NCBI GenBank assembly: GCA_045659785.1
Contig: JAZRCM010000002.1
Coordinates: 1,954-65,953, forward strand
Length of the DNA: 64,000 bases
Reading direction: 5' to 3'
Source of the DNA: Alphaproteobacteria bacterium
GTDB taxonomy: Bacteria; Pseudomonadota; Alphaproteobacteria; RF32; CAG-239
Position numbers and translations under genes: made by a program. Every line of letters starts with the position of its first letter. The stretch's first letter is position 1. Below the pieces are notes generated by a model. It saw only the letters and a list, made by a program, of their open reading frames with translations. It did not search any database and was not told where the DNA came from. Shown here piece after piece: positions 1 to 10,740 of this stretch.

Positions 1-93
1 AAACATAGTGCTTCAGGTCGTTTCTACGAAGCAACAGGAAGTGGCTTCCAACCTGTTGAGATCAATTCAAGATCATCGAGCATACTACCGATT

Positions 94-1770
94 ATGGATA
101 TAGACAAAAGTATTGACTTGTCAAAAACAACCTTAAACGAACAAGGAATAGAAATAGTAGAATTAGGTAGTTTTCCTCAAAATATAGCTAATGAAGATAT
201 TCAACAAAAACTGGAAGCAGCATATAGTCAAAAAGCACTAACTCCAACCGGGAAATCATACACTTTAGATGGTGGAGTTAGTGAAACTGATGGCTTTAGA
301 GCCCAAAAACACAACGAATTTGAAATGGATGGCAAGAGGTATATCAGAATAAAATCTAAAAGTTGTATTGGATCATACAATAAATCGACAATAAATATGA
401 TAAAAGAAGGAGATCCTATGTGGGTTGAGGTATCTCCGATAAGATGGCAAGTTGACAGAAAAAATGGTATATTGGTGCCTGATGCTGCTTTAATATCAGG
501 TATCCGTCCCAAAGATGCGGATAAATACCTGAGCGAATATTTTTCAAAAGAAATCTTTCAACATGATACTTCTAAACAACAAGAACAACAAAGCCAACTT
601 TCTCCGGAAGAAAAAAGAGCCAGACGTCAAGGAAAGTACGGAATAACCATAAATAAAAAAAAGATGAAAGTAAAAGAACAAATTGGTTTTTACGTTGAAC
701 ATGGTATGTCTTTTATGTTGCATGGGCCATCAGGTGTTGGAAAAACCCGTCGTGTTATGGAACTTGATCCTGATTTAATCTCTATCCCTTTAGCAAAAGG
801 AATTTTGACGGAAGATGTTATTGGAAAAGTAGTTTTTCCAAGTGGTGAAGTTGCTAAAATGAAACCCATACAAGGAAATGAATGGACAGACCCCTCATGG
901 TCTCCATTTGAAGAAGGAAAAGAGCAAGGTGGTATTTGGTGCCCTCCCGCTTGGTATGTAGCTCTTTGTAATAAATGTAAAGAAGAGCCTGAAAAACCTC
1001 ACGTCCTATTTATTGATGAAGTTACTAATGTCAATGAAGGAACACAGTCTTTGATTTTCCACATTTGTTTAAACAAAACAATTACTCCAAATGCAGGACA
1101 TTTACCCCCAAATATTGTTGTAGTTTTAGCTGGCAACAACATGGACGAATCAAATGCGGCTTATACAACAGCGGAACCATTATTTCGTCGTATGTACGGA
1201 CATATTTATTTGAAAACCGATATTCCTGAATGGTTAGAATGGGGAAGCGAAAAAAACACAAAACATCCAGAAAGATTAAAAATTCACCCTATTGTTTCCT
1301 CTTTCGTTGCAACCCATGGAAAAGATGTATTCTATACAGATTATGATGCAGACAAGCCTAAAGAATATGCTATTGATCCTCGTGGTTGGGAACAGATTTC
1401 CGATATTATATATAACAATGAAGGAGAAATTAGAGAAGAGCTATTAGTAGCCAAAATGGGACCGGAACTAGCCGCAAGTTTTATGCATTATGCGGAATAC
1501 CCTCCTCTTACATTAGAAGAGGTTTTAGAAGGTGCTTATGATCGTTCTGACATCCCCGAAAAATTTGATGAAAAATTATCATTAGCTATGAGTTTCCGTT
1601 ATGTCGGAGAAAGAGATTTTGAAAAAGTTCATAATTTTGTCGAAGATAATTTAGGCAAAGAAATAGCAGCTACTTTTGATGAAGCATGGGTAGGAAAAGA
1701 TGATGACAGAGCCTTATACTTTGCTGAAATGAAGATGAAAAAAGATTTACTGAACGGAGGAGGAAGATAA
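94..1770 (+). CDS. AAA+ ATPase, MoxR/AAA_5-like, with an extra N-terminal domain of about 190 aa and a C-terminal extension. The reading frame is open from position 1, so the true 5' end may lie upstream of the window.
   Basis: Walker A (FMLHGPSGVGKTRRV), Walker B (HVLFIDEV) and a sensor-like VLAGNNMDES segment. No stop codon in frame between position 1 and the ATG at 94, and no SD before 94. Ends 2 nt before the next ORF. Confidence 0.7.
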   Translation: MDIDKSIDLSKTTLNEQGIEIVELGSFPQNIANEDIQQKLEAAYSQKALTPTGKSYTLDGGVSETDGFRAQKHNEFEMDGKRYIRIKSKSCIGSYNKSTINMIKEGDPMWVEVSPIRWQVDRKNGILVPDAALISGIRPKDADKYLSEYFSKEIFQHDTSKQQEQQSQLSPEEKRARRQGKYGITINKKKMKVKEQIGFYVEHGMSFMLHGPSGVGKTRRVMELDPDLISIPLAKGILTEDVIGKVVFPSGEVAKMKPIQGNEWTDPSWSPFEEGKEQGGIWCPPAWYVALCNKCKEEPEKPHVLFIDEVTNVNEGTQSLIFHICLNKTITPNAGHLPPNIVVVLAGNNMDESNAAYTTAEPLFRRMYGHIYLKTDIPEWLEWGSEKNTKHPERLKIHPIVSSFVATHGKDVFYTDYDADKPKEYAIDPRGWEQISDIIYNNEGEIREELLVAKMGPELAASFMHYAEYPPLTLEEVLEGAYDRSDIPEKFDEKLSLAMSFRYVGERDFEKVHNFVEDNLGKEIAATFDEAWVGKDDDRALYFAEMKMKKDLLNGGGR

Positions 1771-1771
1771 G

Positions 1772-2155
1772 ATGAACGAAGAAGCTAAAAACAAATTAAG
1801 CAAAGTTTTGTCTAATAATGCAGAAAATCCTCTTATAATTGTATCTGATGAAAATATAACTTTTGAAAATACTGTTACAATTAACGCCAACATTAATGAA
1901 CGCGATTTGCATATTGAAAGTATGTGGCAGAAAAAGATAATGTTACGAAACAGCAATAAACATCTTTTTCTTGTGATTAACGGACTTGACAATATTGAAG
2001 CTGAAGAACAAGACAAGTTTATTCATTTACTGAAAGATCGTCGTTCGGGAACATTTAAGCTTCCTGATTATGTGCAAATTGTTATTCCGGTAAAAGATAA
2101 AGAAAAAGTTTCTAAACAAATAAAATCACTATCACTGTTATGGGAAGTTAAATAA
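1772..2155 (+). CDS. Small hypothetical protein (127 aa), the middle gene of the AAA/vWA operon.
   Basis: ORF lying 2 nt after the AAA gene; its TAA stop overlaps the ATG of the next gene (TAATG). The layout suggests translational coupling. Confidence 0.55.
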   Translation: MNEEAKNKLSKVLSNNAENPLIIVSDENITFENTVTINANINERDLHIESMWQKKIMLRNSNKHLFLVINGLDNIEAEEQDKFIHLLKDRRSGTFKLPDYVQIVIPVKDKEKVSKQIKSLSLLWEVK

Positions 2156-3777
2156 TGACAGAGTACGATGCAAAGGCACAAGAAGAAGATATCAGATATA
2201 TCAGGGGAAAAGTATTACGAAAATTCCCTCTTCTCGGTGTGACTATGGCATCATTGGAAACCTATCCTGACAGCACGATAAAAACGGCTTATACAGATGG
2301 TAAGAGTATACATTACTCTCCTAAGTTTTTTGCTAAACTTTCTGATGAAGAAAAAGTTTTTGTTTATGCTCATGAAGTTATGCATGTAGCTTTCAATCAC
2401 ATTATGCGAAGCAAAGGAAGACACCATAAGTTATGGAATATTGCAACAGATTCCGTGATTAATCAGATATTGAAAGAAGAAGGTCTTCCTCTTGTAAAAG
2501 GCGGTGTAAACATAGAAGAAGCACTTAATAAATCAGCAGAAGAAATGTATGAAAAACTCTTAAAGAAAAGAGAAGAAAAAAGGAAGCAAAAGGAAGAAGA
2601 GGAAAAAAGGAAACAAGAAAAAAGCAATTCGACAACTTCGCAAGATAATCCCGAACAACAGAGAGACAATCAAGAACAGGAAGAAAATCCTCAAAGTCAA
2701 GAAGATAATAATCAGCAAATAGAGAACAACGAAGACAACAATCAAGCTGATAATGAACAAACAGAAAATACCGACGAACAAGAACAACGCGATAACGGAG
2801 ATTCCGAGGAAGGAAACTCCGATGATGAAAATTCCGTCGAAGAAAATGATGATACTTCTGATAATGAAGAAGATAGCGATGAATTTGACGAAGATATTTA
2901 TGATGTTTTAGATGATGAAAACGAAGATGTCGGACACGCAGACCACCAAATTTGGAAACAAGCCGTAGAAGAGGCAGAAAAACAACAAGCTGCAGAAAAC
3001 GTCCAAAGCGGCACAGGAGAAAGAAGCGAAGGTAACAACGATGATACTTTCGAGAAAGGCTTTGTCGCCGATAACAAAGAAGAACGTGCTCAACAAATTA
3101 AACGAGCAAGACAAATGCTTGAAAAAAGCAAAGCTGAAGCTCAAGCTTCAATACAGGGACAATCATTTGGTGATGTGGGGGAAATTTGCAGAGGAGAAGA
3201 AGTTGTTAATTGGAAAAGAGTATTAAAAAATTCAATAGAAAAAGAAGAAATGCGATGGTCATATCGTCGAGCTTCAGCGGAAAATGATTATGCTGCTAGG
3301 TTAGAAGAAGTGGAAACTGATGAAATGGCAGAAACAGAAGTTATGCTTGATGTCAGCGGTTCTGTTAATGAAAAAATGATCAAAGAATTTTTACGACAGC
3401 TTAAACCTATTTTGAAAAGTTCTAAACTCAAAGTCGGTTGTTTTGATGATAGAATATATGATTTTGCAGAAATCAAAAAAGATAAAGATATTGATGAGTT
3501 CAAAGTTCCCGGTGGCGGCGGTACAAATTTAGATAAAGCGGTACGAGCCTTTTCAAAAAGTAAAAAAGTAAACAAAATAGTATTTACGGATGGATATGCA
3601 TGGGGAAGTGATATGCCTCAAGACGATTTGAAAGGCACAAATGTTCTATGGCTCGTCTATGATAACAGAGACTTCCACCCTTGTTGCGGAAAAGTTATTT
3701 ATGTTGACAAAAAACAATTCACGCAAGGAGCAAGACAATCTTTTGCTCAACAAGGAAAAGACGGATACTTATGTTAA
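2155..3777 (+). CDS. DUF2201-type putative Zn metallopeptidase (HExxH) with a C-terminal vWA domain (MIDAS motif) and a very long acidic low-complexity linker.
   Basis: N-terminal YAHEVMHVAFNH followed by WNIATDSVINQ. C-terminal vWA with DVSGSV (DxSxS) and GGGT. About 2540-3140 is E/D/N/Q-rich. Start overlaps the previous stop. Confidence 0.7.
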   Translation: MTEYDAKAQEEDIRYIRGKVLRKFPLLGVTMASLETYPDSTIKTAYTDGKSIHYSPKFFAKLSDEEKVFVYAHEVMHVAFNHIMRSKGRHHKLWNIATDSVINQILKEEGLPLVKGGVNIEEALNKSAEEMYEKLLKKREEKRKQKEEEEKRKQEKSNSTTSQDNPEQQRDNQEQEENPQSQEDNNQQIENNEDNNQADNEQTENTDEQEQRDNGDSEEGNSDDENSVEENDDTSDNEEDSDEFDEDIYDVLDDENEDVGHADHQIWKQAVEEAEKQQAAENVQSGTGERSEGNNDDTFEKGFVADNKEERAQQIKRARQMLEKSKAEAQASIQGQSFGDVGEICRGEEVVNWKRVLKNSIEKEEMRWSYRRASAENDYAARLEEVETDEMAETEVMLDVSGSVNEKMIKEFLRQLKPILKSSKLKVGCFDDRIYDFAEIKKDKDIDEFKVPGGGGTNLDKAVRAFSKSKKVNKIVFTDGYAWGSDMPQDDLKGTNVLWLVYDNRDFHPCCGKVIYVDKKQFTQGARQSFAQQGKDGYLC

Positions 3778-6864: not shown

Positions 6865-7047
6865 ATGGAAAATAACGAAAAGAAAAACATCATAAACAAC
6901 TATCAAAATCGTTGTGATTGCAGTGAAGATGATAATTGCGGATGCTCTTATCCTAACAATACAAACTCCGATTATGATGCAGTCTGTCCTAAAAATCTAA
7001 ATCAGGAAGATTGTTGCAAAAAACGTTCGGCTTCTAAAAATGCCTGA
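6865..7047 (+). CDS. Candidate small Cys-rich protein (60 aa, 8 Cys). Its 3' end overlaps the convergent trxB by 46 nt.
   Basis: A strong SD (AGGAGA) sits 6 nt before the ATG, directly after the greA terminator. Eight Cys in 60 codons is unusual in an AT-rich genome. Confidence 0.3.
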   Translation: MENNEKKNIINNYQNRCDCSEDDNCGCSYPNNTNSDYDAVCPKNLNQEDCCKKRSASKNA

Positions 7048-8061: not shown

Positions 8062-8138
8062 GCGCTCCTAGCTCAGCTGGATAGAGCAACAGCCTTCTAA
8101 GCTGTGGGTCAGAGGTTCGAATCCTCTGGAGCGCGCCA
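8062..8138 (+). tRNA. tRNA-Arg (anticodon TCT).
   Basis: Manual fold. Acceptor GCGCTCC pairs with GGAGCGC, then discriminator G and CCA. Anticodon stem ACAGC/GCTGT with loop CTTCTAA. T-loop TTCGAAT. Confidence 0.85.
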
Positions 8139-8364: not shown

Positions 8365-9183
8365 TTAGATAATATCTCTCACGCTTTTTTGTCCGTTACC
8401 TGCCTGATTCATATTGAAAAAGGCATTGATGGTGATGTCATCGTATCGGAGCTGATACAAACCACCCTTCTCTATCATTTGACGTTTTTTGTTGAGCCAA
8501 TAATAGTTACCGAAGTTTTTGGTCTTGTAAAACTGCTCAGGGCGAAGGTCGAGAATGTTCTCAGCATTTAAGATGCCCATATAAGCTGCTCCTTGTACCC
8601 AATGTCTCTTGAGCAATCCGTTAGCACGTTTTCCGGCAGAACGACGATAACGTGTCATACAATTAACACAATATTCATCGCTTTCTCCGTCGTTGACAGC
8701 CTCCAAAAATTTGCTCGGAGCCTGAACATATCGCCCATCAAGGCTGTAACCGGTAACGTTTTCTCCGCCTACATTGTACATAAATAACGCACAGCCGATA
8801 ATCTGTTCATCGCTCAACTTGCGTTTGTCGAAGTGTTTGAAGAACGGTACAAGGCGGTTTTCAATATGGTAAATACACCATTCTTTACCTACCTTCTTGC
8901 TGACAATGTCCTTCTTAGTTACATAGTCACCATTAGGCTTAACAGTAACACCATACCAAGATGTCCATCGAGCTCCGCAGTGGTATGGTTTACCCTGACC
9001 TTTGTCGCCTTCAATGAGAGCGATAAAGGTAAAGATGTCCTCACTGAGTTCGGTTGCTCGAGCAACGTTGTACTCTGCCGCGTTCTTACTTCTTCTTGAA
9101 CCGTTTCCGCCACAAGTGAAACAAAGGGTCATAATGACCGCAAAAATTGCCAATATGGCAATAATCTGAGATTTTTTCTTCAT
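8365..9183 (-). CDS. Exported GH24 (phage-type) lysozyme-like protein, lipoprotein-like, with a C-terminal extension of about 90 aa.
   Basis: Signal peptide with Cys. IALIEGDKGQGKPYHCGARWTSWYGVTV resembles the lysozyme E...Y...T.GYG motif. LSDEQIIGCALFMYNVGG and AGKRANGLLKRH resemble the GL.RRR.E tail. Confidence 0.5.
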   Translation of the reverse strand: MKKKSQIIAILAIFAVIMTLCFTCGGNGSRRSKNAAEYNVARATELSEDIFTFIALIEGDKGQGKPYHCGARWTSWYGVTVKPNGDYVTKKDIVSKKVGKEWCIYHIENRLVPFFKHFDKRKLSDEQIIGCALFMYNVGGENVTGYSLDGRYVQAPSKFLEAVNDGESDEYCVNCMTRYRRSAGKRANGLLKRHWVQGAAYMGILNAENILDLRPEQFYKTKNFGNYYWLNKKRQMIEKGGLYQLRYDDITINAFFNMNQAGNGQKSVRDII

Positions 9184-9303: not shown

Positions 9304-9747
9304 TTATTCAGGTTTTTGTGCGGTTAAAATAACTCCGTCTTTTATACCGGTTATTTTTACATCATCGCCGGATTTAAGATTATCTTCGCACTCAACCAGC
9401 CATACGGTATCACCGATAGACACTTTTGAACGACCATCGACAACATCTTGAACCAACTTAAAACGACGACCGATATATTGTGCAGCAGGATTGTTCAAAT
9501 TTTTACTTTCCGGAGCCACTTTAGCCAAATTCATCAGCTTTTTATATACATATAACCCGATTATGGCACAAATTGCAGCGATAACCGAAAATACTATCAC
9601 TTGTTGCGTAGTGGTAAGAGTAACAAAACTCACTACTCCGACCATTATTAAGGCGGCGAAACCGAACCAAATAACATAAGTTCCGGGAATAAAGAACTCT
9701 AACAATACAAGTCCTAATCCCAATGAAAGCCAATGAATATAATTCAT
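9304..9747 (-). CDS. NfeD-family membrane protein, partner of the SPFH protein.
   Basis: Two or three N-terminal TM helices plus a C-terminal soluble OB-like domain. Lies directly downstream of the stomatin-like gene. Confidence 0.7.
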   Translation of the reverse strand: MNYIHWLSLGLGLVLLEFFIPGTYVIWFGFAALIMVGVVSFVTLTTTQQVIVFSVIAAICAIIGLYVYKKLMNLAKVAPESKNLNNPAAQYIGRRFKLVQDVVDGRSKVSIGDTVWLVECEDNLKSGDDVKITGIKDGVILTAQKPE

Positions 9748-9756
9748 AACAAACTC

Positions 9757-10674
9757 CTATTTTTTGTTATCCATAACTTCTTTGGCAATCTCTGCAATTC
9801 CGGCCAATGAACCGATAAGATTTTGTGTATCCATCGGCAACATTAACAATTTTTGGTTTGGAGAAGTTACGATACCTTGCAAAGCTTCTACATATTTAAC
9901 ACCTAAGAAATAATTTAGGGCTTTAGCATCACCTTGAGCTATTGCATCAGACAGCATTTTTGTTGCATTTGCTTCGGCTTCTGCTGCACGTTCACGAGCT
10001 TCTGCAGCACGGAAAGCTGCTTCTCTTTCACCTTCTGCCTGCAAAATACGAGATTGTTTTTCACCTTCTGATTTCAAAATTTCTGATTGGCGAACACCTT
10101 CAGCTTCCAAAATGTTGGCACGTTTTTCACGCTCTGCCTTCATTTGACGAGCCATCGCATCTATCAAATCACGCGGTGGTGTAATATCCTTGATTTCAAC
10201 ACGGGTAACTTTAACCCCCCAAGGGATTGTTGCATCATCTACGACCGACAACAAACGCTGATTTATGGAATCACGTTGAGACAGAAGTTCGTCAATTTCC
10301 ATACCGCCGATAACCGTACGAATGTTGGTCATAACAAGGTTTAGAATAGCCAAATCCAAATCTCTTACCTGATAAGCGGCATTTTCTGCTTTTTGAATTT
10401 GAAAGAACAATACACCGTCAACCGTTACCATCGCATTATCACGAGTAATAACTTCTTGAGACGGAACATCCAAAACTTGTTCCATACGATTGATTTTTGC
10501 ACCTATTTTTTCCAAAATCGGAACTAAAATATGAAATCCCGGTTCAAGCGAACGAGTATATTTTCCTAAAAATTCAACAGTATATTCATATCCCTGTCGA
10601 ACGATTACGACCGAATTTACCAATGCCACAACAATGAGTATCAGCAAAACTATGGCAACGATTTCTATTCCCAT
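9757..10674 (-). CDS. SPFH/band-7 (stomatin/QmcA-like) protein.
   Basis: N-terminal TM, then VVIVRQGYEYTVEFLGKYTRSLEPGFHILVPILE, then a coiled-coil Ala/Glu-rich tail. Likely start is MGIEIV; the ORF track extends to 10710. Confidence 0.8.
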   Translation of the reverse strand: MGIEIVAIVLLILIVVALVNSVVIVRQGYEYTVEFLGKYTRSLEPGFHILVPILEKIGAKINRMEQVLDVPSQEVITRDNAMVTVDGVLFFQIQKAENAAYQVRDLDLAILNLVMTNIRTVIGGMEIDELLSQRDSINQRLLSVVDDATIPWGVKVTRVEIKDITPPRDLIDAMARQMKAEREKRANILEAEGVRQSEILKSEGEKQSRILQAEGEREAAFRAAEARERAAEAEANATKMLSDAIAQGDAKALNYFLGVKYVEALQGIVTSPNQKLLMLPMDTQNLIGSLAGIAEIAKEVMDNKK

Positions 10675-10740
10675 TTTATCCTCACTAAAAAAGTTAAAAC
10701 ATATTAGCATTGTATTGCTTTATATAATTTATGCAATACA

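What the first reader, a model, noticed from the sequence alone, without database searches (positions are those of the whole stretch)
1..3777. Translationally coupled three-gene operon with an acidic insert: MoxR-like AAA+ ATPase, small protein, DUF2201 HExxH/vWA protein
Seen in sequence: three plus-strand ORFs separated by 2 nt and by a TAATG overlap. The first carries Walker A GPSGVGKT, Walker B LFIDEV and a MoxR-like sensor region, plus about 190 extra N-terminal residues, and its frame is open to the window edge. The third carries YAHEVMHVAFNH and WNIATDSVIN (the DUF2201_N metallopeptidase-like signature) and a vWA MIDAS motif DVSGSV. Established knowledge: MoxR-vWA pairs act as ATP-dependent chaperone-like or activation modules. 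Kaur, Iyer and Aravind proposed that ternary MoxR-vWA systems are NTP-dependent biological-conflict systems. Inference: this looks like a three-component version with an unusual intrinsically disordered acidic linker. The middle gene is tightly coupled to both neighbours and could be the effector or sensor. The locus borders a DUF4105 outer-membrane protein gene rather than housekeeping genes, consistent with an accessory system.
Basis: partly seen in the sequence, partly recalled or inferred. Interest (0 to 1): 0.72.

Follow-up and report, generated by a model that had tools for sequence, protein, structure and literature searches.

The report
Retroelement-orphaned lectin-ATPase / dead-AAA+ / peptidase-vWA cassette
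The three genes are real and form a conserved accessory cassette of gut bacteria (a MoxR-type ATPase, a catalytically dead mini-AAA+ protein and a peptidase-vWA protein); in many relatives a diversity-generating retroelement hypermutates the ATPase's N-terminal binding domain, but this copy has lost that retroelement.

Summary
Three translationally coupled plus-strand genes lie at 1-3777, with the stated Walker A/B, HExxH and MIDAS motifs. There are two small corrections. The first junction is TAAgATG, a 1-nt spacer. The ATPase lacks its first 39 codons at the window edge.

By predicted structure the ATPase is MoxR/dynein-type; its Pfam AAA_5 hit is below threshold. The 127-aa middle protein is a stand-alone AAA+ core without a P-loop, so it is an adaptor candidate rather than an effector or sensor. 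The third protein is DUF2201_N (HExxH), a roughly 210-aa acidic linker typical of the family, and a vWA domain.

The main new result comes from about 18 related loci. There the cassette directly follows Avd-TR-RT, and the template repeat matches a variable repeat in the 5' end of the ATPase gene. Nearly all mismatches fall at template adenines. The ATPase N-terminus is therefore a target of a diversity-generating retroelement (DGR), and it is a DUF6273-type C-lectin domain.

The window's lineage has no RT, TR, GC-rich IMH or target hairpin. Its N-terminal domain has diverged into a few stable alleles, while the rest of the operon is under purifying selection.

Best reading: a cytoplasmic ligand-sensing AAA+/peptidase conflict module with its specificity now hard-wired. 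It is a new variant of known DGR/MoxR-vWA systems.

The parts
1..1770 (+). MoxR/dynein-type AAA+ ATPase gene, 5'-truncated by the window edge (codons 40-628 of the 628-aa protein P0121)
1..93 (+). 3' end of the segment positionally equivalent to the DGR variable repeat (VR) of relatives; here a fossil without a GC-rich IMH
   Evidence: It is positionally equivalent to the VR end ('R..xRP') of DGR-linked relatives. GC is 30-55% here against 55-70% in relatives. dN is 0.49 and omega 0.77 against L009. No TR-like copy exists in the window and no TR hits occur in the clade.
136..558 (+). beta-rich middle domain of the ATPase (GxFPQ ... YIR ... W.EV.PI.W motifs), conserved family-wide
   Evidence: AF2 strands run from E90 to E199 of P0121 with pLDDT 84-93. 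Nearly invariant columns are listed.
646..1218 (+). AAA+ alpha/beta core; Walker A GPSGVGKT at 724-747, Walker B VLFIDE at 1003-1020
1219..1767 (+). C-terminal all-helical region (lid plus extension) of the ATPase
   Evidence: AF2 helices H447-H623 have pLDDT mostly above 90.
1756..1764 (+). GGAGGAGGA Shine-Dalgarno for the middle gene, embedded in the ATPase C-terminal GGGR codons
   Evidence: Read directly from the sequence.
1772..2155 (+). 127-aa stand-alone, catalytically dead AAA+ alpha/beta core ('MID')
2155..3777 (+). DUF2201 protein: zincin-like HExxH domain, acidic disordered linker, vWA domain
   Evidence: Pfam PF13203 scores 7.4e-32 and PF09967 scores 6.6e-14. PHROG 1314 scores 2.5e-74.
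2215..2727 (+). DUF2201_N putative metallopeptidase domain; HEVMH at 2371-2385, WNIATD at 2434-2451
   Evidence: HExxH is conserved in 118/119 homologues and WNxAxD in 117/119. omega is 0.03.
2557..3189 (+). acidic low-complexity linker (211 aa, D+E 32%, N+Q 23%, net charge -43)
   Evidence: Short tandem repeats in this region are shown. Its length varies across the family from 39 to 372 aa. omega is 0.19.
3340..3705 (+). vWA-like domain with MIDAS DVSGS (3349-3363)
   Evidence: MIDAS is conserved in 118/119 homologues.

Best explanation
The window holds a self-contained three-gene accessory cassette.
1. The first gene encodes an AAA+ ATPase of the MoxR/dynein-midasin type. Its N-terminus carries a small binding domain followed by a beta-rich domain.
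2. The second encodes a 127-aa AAA+ core that cannot bind ATP.
3. The third encodes a DUF2201 protein: a zincin-like HExxH domain, an acidic disordered linker and a vWA/MIDAS domain.

Shown. In many relatives from gut Alphaproteobacteria the same cassette is the target module of a diversity-generating retroelement (DGR). Avd, the template repeat (TR) and the RT lie directly upstream. The TR rewrites, by adenine mutagenesis, a roughly 110-nt variable repeat (VR). That VR encodes part of a DUF6273-type C-lectin domain at the N-terminus of the ATPase.

Inferred mechanism. The ATPase ring displays lectin-fold sensor domains in the cytoplasm. The vWA/MIDAS partner docks on the ring, as in NorQ-NorD or CbbQ-CbbO. 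The dead AAA+ protein acts as an adaptor or regulatory subunit. Ligand binding is coupled through ATP hydrolysis to activation or delivery of the HExxH peptidase. This would make it a sensor-transducer-effector conflict module, probably anti-phage or anti-mobile-element.

In the window's own lineage the retroelement has been lost. The N-terminal domain is frozen into a few alleles that recombine between strains. The remaining genes are kept by purifying selection, so the machine probably still works with a hard-wired specificity.
For: Anatomy.
- The ORFs, motifs and gene junctions are confirmed.
- The ATPase has a MoxR/dynein-type fold.
- The middle protein is a dead AAA+ core.
- DUF2201_N and vWA domains are present with conserved HExxH, WNxAxD and MIDAS motifs.
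- The trio order is conserved in Alphaproteobacteria and Clostridia MAGs.

DGR link in relatives.
- An RVT_1 RT (1.6e-19) with the LGNQTSQ and YMDD motifs lies upstream.
- Avd-like proteins match the whole bAvd profile at 1e-5, below the curated threshold.
- TR/VR pairs were found in 17 loci, with 11-25 of 12-33 mismatches at TR adenines. Examples are L019 25/25, L020 23/23, L027 22/22 and L041 23/23.
- The TR is 99-100% conserved across the L007 group while the VRs differ.
- A hairpin 3' of the VR has 5 of 7 pairs showing compensatory changes.
- The N-terminal domain is homologous to DUF6273 (Pfam 3e-8; hhalign 96.8%). DUF6273 is a published C-lectin DGR target (PMC10743442, PMC11792537).

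Loss in the window lineage.
- No RT or TR lies in the 64-kb window.
- None lies upstream in five related contigs.
- No TR hits occur in the clade.
- The region is AT-rich and has no IMH.
- Identical N-terminal alleles sit on divergent backbones: P0121 matches P0123, P0122 matches P0125, and L001 nearly matches L012.
- On an NJ tree the window clade branches as its own lineage inside the large alphaproteobacterial group, in which RT-linked loci are scattered over several sub-clades.
- L024 and L026 show intermediate stages of RT loss.

Still functional. omega is 0.03-0.25 for the folded domains, and all catalytic motifs are intact.
Against: - No experiment bears on function, and PADLOC finds nothing.
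- The window-clade N-terminal domain is not significantly similar to the lectin domain at profile level (hhalign 6%). Its homology rests on position, the terminal R..RP motif and a compatible AF2 topology.
- The rest of this genome was not searchable, so a trans-acting DGR cannot be excluded.
- The similarity of the middle protein to the ATPase core is structural only (hhalign probability 9%).
- The peptidase activity of DUF2201_N is only predicted.
- Stable synteny next to housekeeping genes in this lineage would also fit a domesticated cellular role.
- The NJ tree has no support values.
Confidence: 0.6

Rival explanations
1. The cassette is a dedicated chaperone or maturation module like NorQ-NorD, CbbQ-CbbO, CobS-CobT or RavA-ViaA. 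It would remodel or metallate one cellular client, with no role in conflict.
For: The ATPase has a MoxR-type fold close to CbbQ and NorQ. It has a vWA/MIDAS partner. Synteny is stable and selection is purifying in this lineage. Neighbours are mostly housekeeping genes.
Against: No neighbour recurs across 25 loci, so there is no candidate client. Distribution is patchy across two phyla, with multiple copies per genome. In relatives a DGR diversifies the ATPase N-terminus. That makes sense for recognising variable targets, not one fixed client. An HExxH domain is fused to the vWA domain.
Confidence: 0.15
2. The cassette is a prophage remnant or phage moron. It would be a phage-derived MoxR-like ATPase plus DUF2201 module that serves phage replication or host takeover.
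For: PHROG 1297 scores 2.6e-26 and PHROG 1314 scores 2.5e-74. DUF2201 homologues occur in N4-like phages with an AAA gene nearby, and MoxR-like ATPases occur in phiTE/CR3-type phages. L007 lies next to lambda-like tail genes. DUF6273 lectin targets are typical of gut phages.
Against: Identity to phage proteins is only 22-34%. IMG/VR holds no close relative. Among 146 flanking ORFs from 25 loci, only one locus has tail genes. No phage genes lie nearby in the window. The GC content of the locus matches the rest of the window.
Confidence: 0.15
3. The window's copy is still an active DGR target, served in trans by an RT/TR located elsewhere in the genome.
For: The VR-equivalent segment is by far the most divergent part of the gene (dN 0.49, omega 0.77). 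L024 lacks a local RT/TR, yet 20 of its 24 VR mismatches to the L007-type TR fall at adenines. An AT-rich palindrome lies where relatives have the target hairpin.
Against: N-terminal alleles are identical on divergent backbones. L001 and L012 differ by 2 residues in this segment. There is no GC-rich IMH and no similarity to any TR. No RT lies in 64 kb.
Confidence: 0.07

Closest known systems
DGR-associated MoxR-vWA 'VMAP ternary' conflict systems (Kaur et al. 2020, PMC7159879; Dore et al. 2024, PMC10907252)
   Same: Both combine a MoxR-type AAA+ ATPase, a vWA protein and a third component. In both, a DGR diversifies a C-lectin-fold domain. Both are predicted cytoplasmic sensor-transducer-effector systems.
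   Different: In the published systems the variable FGS/C-lectin domain sits at the C-terminus of the vWA protein or of a separate target. Here it is at the N-terminus of the ATPase. Here the third component is a dead AAA+ core rather than a VMAP. The vWA is the DUF2201 type fused to a zincin-like domain. The hosts are gut Alphaproteobacteria and Clostridia, not multicellular cyanobacteria, actinobacteria or Chromatiales. The window copy has no DGR.
iSTAND ternary systems (Kaur et al. 2020)
   Same: Both are MoxR-vWA pairs whose third partner is an inactive P-loop NTPase domain.
   Different: The iSTAND core is a STAND-type domain. The middle protein here is a minimal 127-aa AAA+ core with no other domain. 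Homology between the two was not tested.
Tentaclins and other DUF6273 C-lectin DGR targets of gut phages (PMC10743442; PMC11792537; bioRxiv 10.1101/2024.10.15.618418)
   Same: Both have a DUF6273-type C-lectin domain with the VR at its C-terminal end. [quoted passage not shown] RT-less copies of the targets also exist in that family.
   Different: In tentaclins the lectin domain is followed by Ig/Fn3 domains, and the proteins are virion-associated receptor binders. Here it is followed by an AAA+ ATPase with no signal peptide, and the gene lies in a cellular operon.
CPR/DPANN DGR targets with C-lectin fused to AAA or midasin-like ATPase (cited in PMC10907252 and in Wu et al. 2018, PMC5758913)
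   Same: In both, a DGR-diversified domain and an AAA-type ATPase share one polypeptide.
   Different: They come from different lineages and a different RT clade. [quoted passage not shown] No DUF2201 or dead-AAA+ partners are reported for them.
NorQ-NorD, CbbQ-CbbO, RavA-ViaA (characterised MoxR-vWA chaperone pairs)
   Different: They have no N-terminal sensor domain, no peptidase domain on the vWA partner and no dead-AAA+ third gene. They are linked to a defined client operon, which this cassette is not.
Phage MoxR-like ATPase (PHROG 1297) and DUF2201 (PHROG 1314, mislabelled 'HNH endonuclease') of N4-like and phiTE-like phages
   Same: They belong to the same two protein families.
   Different: Identity is only 22-34%. 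The phage versions have no lectin domain and no acidic linker of comparable size (the phiA41 protein is 389 aa). Gene order differs, and their function is equally unknown.

Membership tests
MoxR / AAA_5 (dynein-midasin-related) AAA+ ATPases | Match to Pfam AAA_5/AAA_3 at the curated threshold | tested here: not met
   AAA_5 scores E 0.0065 and 16.9 bits against a cutoff of 22. Relatives behave the same way: P0144 scores 16.1 bits and P0223 scores 20.2 bits. A PDB profile search gives only marginal hits.
MoxR / AAA_5 (dynein-midasin-related) AAA+ ATPases | Fold of the ATPase core closest to MoxR, dynein or midasin modules | tested here: met
MoxR / AAA_5 (dynein-midasin-related) AAA+ ATPases | Intact Walker A and Walker B motifs and a genetically linked vWA/MIDAS partner | tested here: met
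   GPSGVGKT and VLFIDE are present and conserved in 114/120 and 119/120 homologues. The vWA gene lies two genes downstream and is translationally coupled.
DUF2201 (PF13203 + PF09967) | Both Pfam domains above the gathering score, with HExxH and MIDAS motifs | tested here: met
   PF13203 scores 111.5 bits (cutoff 23.2) and PF09967 scores 52.5 bits (cutoff 26.4). HEVMH, WNIATD and DVSGS are present and conserved in at least 117 of 119 homologues.
Diversity-generating retroelement (the window locus itself) | RT with (I/L)GxxxSQ, a TR, and a VR differing from the TR at adenines, plus IMH | tested here: not met
   No RT or TR lies in the 64-kb window. None lies upstream in close relatives. There are no TR hits and no GC-rich IMH or hairpin. 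The rest of the genome was not searchable.
Diversity-generating retroelement (related cassettes L005, L007, L014-17, L019-23, L027-30, L041, L081) | RT, Avd, TR/VR pair with adenine-specific mismatches, and a target-site inverted repeat | tested here: met
   The RT is RVT_1 at 1.6e-19 with LGNQTSQ and YMDD motifs. The Avd-like protein scores 1e-5 over the full profile, below the curated cutoff. The adenine bias is shown. The hairpin with covariation is shown.
DUF6273-type C-lectin variable domain | Profile similarity of the ATPase N-terminus to DUF6273 | tested here: inconclusive
   This is met for relatives: Pfam hits in 5 of 45 members, best 3e-8, and alphaproteobacterial versus clostridial hhalign at 96.8%. 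It is not met for the window clade (hhalign 6%). There, only position and an AF2 beta-alpha-alpha-beta-beta-beta-beta topology agree.
VMAP ternary system (Kaur et al. 2020) | A VMAP protein (helical VMAP-C/M domains) as third component, and effector domains C-terminal to the vWA | tested here: not met
   The third component is an AAA+ alpha/beta core. The vWA is C-terminal with nothing after it. No VMAP HMM was available, so absence is judged from the gene content of the cassette.
Known anti-phage defence systems (PADLOC-DB v2) | A match of any of the three proteins to a PADLOC model | tested here: not met
   There were no hits at E <= 1.

The most novel reading that the evidence does not exclude
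The cassette family may be a protein-level 'adaptive recognition' machine of gut bacteria. In this reading a cytoplasmic AAA+ unfoldase ring uses lectin-fold antigen-binding domains whose specificity a DGR reprograms. The ring hands recognised foreign proteins, for example phage proteins, to a dedicated metallopeptidase-vWA partner, and a dead AAA+ subunit gates the ring. The window's lineage would then be a natural experiment. The diversifier has been discarded, and a handful of successful specificities are maintained and exchanged by recombination.
Probability: 0.3. Interest if true: 0.8.

Novelty: new variant of a known kind. Interest (0 to 1): 0.6.

Why it matters
DGR targets are almost always surface or virion receptor binders with the variable region at the C-terminus. 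The few cytoplasmic 'antigen sensor' cases known so far put the lectin domain on a vWA or STAND protein.

This family puts a DGR-diversified lectin domain on the N-terminus of a MoxR-type motor. It couples that motor to two uncharacterised partners: a dead AAA+ core, and DUF2201, a widespread family also found in phages with no known function. This gives DUF2201 and phage MoxR-like ATPases their first functional context.

The family also offers matched natural pairs for testing what DGR-tuned intracellular recognition is for. These are DGR-linked, recently orphaned, and long-orphaned copies such as the one in this window.

For the window itself the result is more modest. It holds an intact, selected, retroelement-less descendant.

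Tried and rejected
- Exact look-ups of the window's DUF2201 and ATPase proteins found no record. The middle protein's look-up returned only short contigs. The window's own upstream DNA therefore could not be read. All related assemblies break in a repeat-rich divergent gene.
- The metagenome scan for closer contexts gave one 3.4-kb contig.
- IMG/VR held no close relatives, so I dropped 'phage-borne cassette' as the main reading.
- I considered a retron or DRT explanation for the upstream RT. I rejected it because TR/VR pairs show adenine-specific mismatches, an Avd-like gene is present, and the RT carries the LGNQTSQ motif.
- A profile-profile test of the middle protein against the ATPase core aligned the expected Walker B to sensor-1 region, but at only 9% probability. 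A PDB sequence search found nothing. Only structure prediction settled the fold.
- I looked for RT or Avd remnants and Rfam families in the conserved 750-nt upstream intergenic region of relatives and found none.
- I looked for recurrent neighbours that might be effectors or clients and found none.
- The predicted model could not be cropped, so the fold of the window protein's N-terminal domain was not searched on its own.

Full report
**1. The observation**

Three plus-strand ORFs occupy 1-3777.

The first frame is open to nt 1. A database protein identical over the whole window part, P0121 (628 aa), shows that the window lacks the first 39 codons.

Junction 1 reads TAAgATG, with the stop at 1768-1770 and the start at 1772. 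The spacer is therefore one base, not two. A GGAGGAGGA Shine-Dalgarno lies inside the ATPase's last codons. Junction 2 is the TAATG overlap at 2153-2157.

All quoted motifs are present:
- GPSGVGKT at nt 724-747
- VLFIDE at nt 1003-1020
- HEVMH, WNIATD and DVSGS in ORF3

Pfam places ORF3 firmly in DUF2201_N (7.4e-32) and DUF2201/vWA (6.6e-14).

The acidic segment is real: 211 aa, 32% D+E, net charge -43. A linker of this size and charge is the family norm, with a median of 212 aa across 116 homologues.

**2. The ATPase**

Pfam AAA_5 and other AAA models hit only below threshold. NCBIfam and PADLOC give nothing useful. PHROG 1297 'ATPase' matches at 2.6e-26.

Upstream of the AAA+ core lie a small N-terminal domain (residues 1-75) and a beta-rich domain (about residues 85-225). 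An all-helical region follows the core.

**3. The middle gene**

The 127-aa protein has no significant family hit. Its family comprises about 200 representative clusters among 1.84 billion proteins; all but a few of the listed members are 110-165 aa (range 67-265).

The gene sits between the ATPase and DUF2201 genes in most surveyed loci that have both; 49 of the 58 loci with both genes had a 70-aa-or-longer ORF in the gap (alignment A5).

The family lacks a P-loop: only 1 of 158 members has GxxxxGK[ST]. The Walker-B-equivalent in the window protein is LVINGLD.

It is therefore a catalytically dead, lid-less AAA+ core. That makes it a plausible adaptor or regulatory subunit of the ATPase ring, not an effector or sensor. 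It is the most strongly constrained gene of the three, with omega 0.05-0.1.

**4. The key finding: relatives are DGR target cassettes**

Homologues are confined to uncultured gut and rumen Alphaproteobacteria and Clostridia.

Close relatives (62-94% identity) keep exactly the window's synteny: a divergent repeat-protein gene, the trio, then Lnb_N, DUF3015, greA and trxB. They have no reverse transcriptase.

At 40-50% identity, many loci carry a 347-aa RVT_1 reverse transcriptase immediately upstream. An Avd-like gene lies further upstream. It matches the full-length bAvd profile at 1e-5, which is below the curated threshold.

In 17 such loci, a 110-140-nt sequence 250-380 nt upstream of the RT matches a sequence in the 5' part of the ATPase gene. 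The mismatches fall almost only at adenines of the upstream copy: 25/25, 23/23, 22/22 and 23/23 in the cleanest cases.

Across the L007 group the upstream copy (TR) is 99-100% conserved, while each variable repeat (VR) is different.

The RT has the LGNQTSQ and YMDD motifs. From Wu et al. 2018 and my own knowledge, these are typical of DGR RTs.

About 27 nt 3' of the VR lies a hairpin. Five of its seven pairs show compensatory double changes across 11 loci. This matches the inverted repeat that promotes mutagenic homing, as described in the introduction of PMC5758913.

These loci are bona fide DGRs. [quoted passage not shown]

**5. The variable domain**

The VR encodes '...W[ST]AS...VRCV...G......RPALP'.

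The N-terminal domain of clostridial members hits Pfam DUF6273, in 5 of 45 members with a best E-value of 3e-8. The alphaproteobacterial domain is homologous to it (hhalign 96.8%, E 2.9e-10).

DUF6273 has been shown by others to be a C-type-lectin fold with the VR at its C-terminal end. It is diversified by DGRs in gut phages. The 'tentaclins' carry it at their N-terminus (PMC10743442, PMC11792537, bioRxiv 10.1101/2024.10.15.618418).

N-terminal VRs are rare: 3 of 372 in Wu et al., against 'near-universal' C-terminal VRs in Roux et al..

**6. State of the window's copy**

Several results indicate that the DGR has been lost here.
- No RT and no TR-like copy exist in the 64-kb window.
- None exists in the 0.7-1.9 kb upstream of the gene in five related contigs, including a lenient search for remnants.
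- The clade's sequences match none of eight TR types.
- The region equivalent to the IMH and hairpin is AT-rich.
- The N-terminal domain is shorter ('MIRLP...') and lacks the W[ST]AS motif. It is no longer recognisably similar by profile (hhalign 6%). Only its position, the terminal R..RP motif (LP in the window) and a compatible AF2 topology link it to the lectin domain.
- The segment is the fastest-evolving part of the gene (dN 0.49, omega 0.77). Yet identical N-terminal alleles occur on clearly different backbones: P0121 matches P0123, P0122 matches P0125, and L001 differs from L012 by 2 residues in this segment. That pattern fits a few stable alleles moved by recombination, not ongoing hypermutation.
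- Recombination is visible directly. The AAA+ and C-terminal part is identical at DNA level between the window and L009, while neighbouring parts have dS of 0.4-0.5.

On a rough NJ tree, RT-linked loci are scattered through the alphaproteobacterial group; the window clade branches as its own lineage within that group, not inside an RT-linked sub-clade.

Intermediate stages of loss exist. L024 has no RT or TR, but 20 of its 24 VR mismatches to the L007 TR are at adenines. L026 retains an RT fragment. Loss of the DGR is therefore the parsimonious history.

The rest of the operon is under purifying selection, with all catalytic motifs intact:
- DUF2201_N, omega 0.03
- vWA, omega 0.14
- middle gene, omega 0.05-0.1
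- ATPase overall, omega 0.24-0.41

**7. Context and mobility**

Immediate neighbours in 25 loci are diverse and mostly housekeeping genes. No phage, defence or client gene recurs among them.

One locus (L007) abuts lambda-like tail genes and a restriction-modification cluster. IMG/VR has no close relative.

Distant homologues (22-34% identity) occur in lytic phages. DUF2201 is found in N4-like phages with an AAA gene nearby, and MoxR-like ATPases are found in phiTE/CR3-type phages.

The cassette thus behaves as a self-contained accessory module of cellular genomes that has distant phage cousins.

**8. Mechanism**

What is shown: the domain anatomy, the conserved gene order and coupling, the DGR targeting in relatives, and the purifying selection.

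What is inferred:
- By analogy with NorQ-NorD and CbbQ-CbbO, the vWA/MIDAS protein docks on the AAA+ ring.
- The lectin-fold N-terminal domains act as ligand sensors.
- The dead AAA+ core acts as an adaptor or gate.
- ATP hydrolysis couples recognition to the HExxH peptidase.

None of the three proteins has an obvious signal peptide at its N-terminus, judging by inspection of the sequences. The target is therefore presumably intracellular.

A DGR on such a sensor argues for recognition of variable, probably foreign, proteins. This is the logic proposed for DGR-diversified MoxR-vWA and STAND systems by Kaur et al. and Dore et al..

I put about 0.6 on the overall picture. Confidence is much higher for the anatomy and the DGR link, and about 0.4-0.5 for the conflict mechanism itself.

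**9. Comparison and novelty**

The nearest described systems are the DGR-associated VMAP ternary MoxR-vWA systems. This cassette differs from them in four ways:
- the placement of the variable domain (ATPase N-terminus rather than vWA C-terminus)
- the third component (a dead AAA+ core rather than VMAP)
- the DUF2201 zincin-vWA partner
- the host range

The searchable library holds no paper that mentions both DGRs and DUF2201. It holds four papers that mention DUF2201 or its accessions; none has the term in its title or abstract, and I did not read them, so whether any bears on function is untested.

I rate the family as a new variant of a known kind. The window's copy is its retroelement-less descendant.

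Noticed in passing
L005:7950-7985, L007:7873-7908 and 9 other related loci; window ~114-125: A conserved hairpin (GCCCGAGCGAAGCGAGGGC type) lies about 27 nt 3' of the VR in DGR-linked relatives. Five of its seven pairs show compensatory changes. At the positionally equivalent place the window has an AT-rich palindrome, TTGACTTGTCAA. L009 has TTGATTTATCAC there, which is partly compensatory. The window clade offers too few distinct sequences to test this.
   Followed up: partly
L005:7820-7930; L008 and L023 VR regions: Some DGR-linked loci have 2-nt indels in the VR relative to the TR. These separate the lectin-domain coding part from the ATPase ORF; L008, for example, has a 72-aa ORF plus a 558-aa ORF. 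They could be real inactivating events or assembly consensus artefacts of a hypervariable population.
   Followed up: no
window 646-1767 versus L009: The AAA+ and C-terminal part of the ATPase gene is identical at DNA level to L009 (dS about 0). The adjacent beta-domain (dS 0.39) and the middle gene (dS 0.52) are diverged. This indicates recent mosaic recombination inside the operon.
   Followed up: partly
L009:751-1515, L010:550-1302, L001:1146-1868 (upstream of the window edge): The roughly 750-nt AT-rich intergenic region upstream of the ATPase gene is 94% identical between L009 and L010 and 78% identical to L001. That is more conserved than parts of the coding sequence. It has no RT or Avd remnant, no Rfam family and no convincing ORF.
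   Followed up: partly
L001:1-1146 (-), and the same gene in L002, L003, L009-L011: The divergent upstream gene in relatives encodes a signal peptide, an ankyrin-like region and long 15-nt tandem repeats encoding GGDVG. Every assembly of this lineage breaks in it, which is why the far upstream context is unknown.
   Followed up: no
window 6865-7047 (+): A 60-aa Cys-rich ORF (MENNEKKNIINNYQNRCDCSEDDNCGCSYPNN...) overlaps the 3' end of trxB on the opposite strand. It is called as a 60-aa gene at the same place in all related contigs.
   Followed up: no
window 8365-9183 (-), 9304-10710 (-): In the relatives' annotations, a gene with a weak Phage_lysozyme hit lies next to an NfeD/Band_7 pair. The tRNA-Arg at 8062-8138 lies between this block and trxB.
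   Followed up: no
L005:11602-11675 (-): In one DGR-linked chromosomal locus a tRNA gene lies 114 nt after the DUF2201 stop codon. This may mark an integration site for the cassette.
   Followed up: no
PHROG 1314; RefSeq N4-like phage records (e.g. NC_048659.1, NC_070861.1): The DUF2201 metallopeptidase/vWA family is labelled 'HNH endonuclease' in PHROGs and in RefSeq phage annotations. The original GenBank records say 'metallopeptidase' or 'von Willebrand factor type A'. In phiA41 an HNH gene lies adjacent, which suggests the label propagated from a neighbour.
   Followed up: partly
SIG384 (L043, L045, L089), CANQHL (L074, L075, L080), CARNVA (L067, L068, L082): Some Clostridia MAGs carry three or more paralogous lectin-ATPase genes. 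Many of these have no adjacent DUF2201 or middle gene, which suggests a separate, expanded branch of the family.
   Followed up: no
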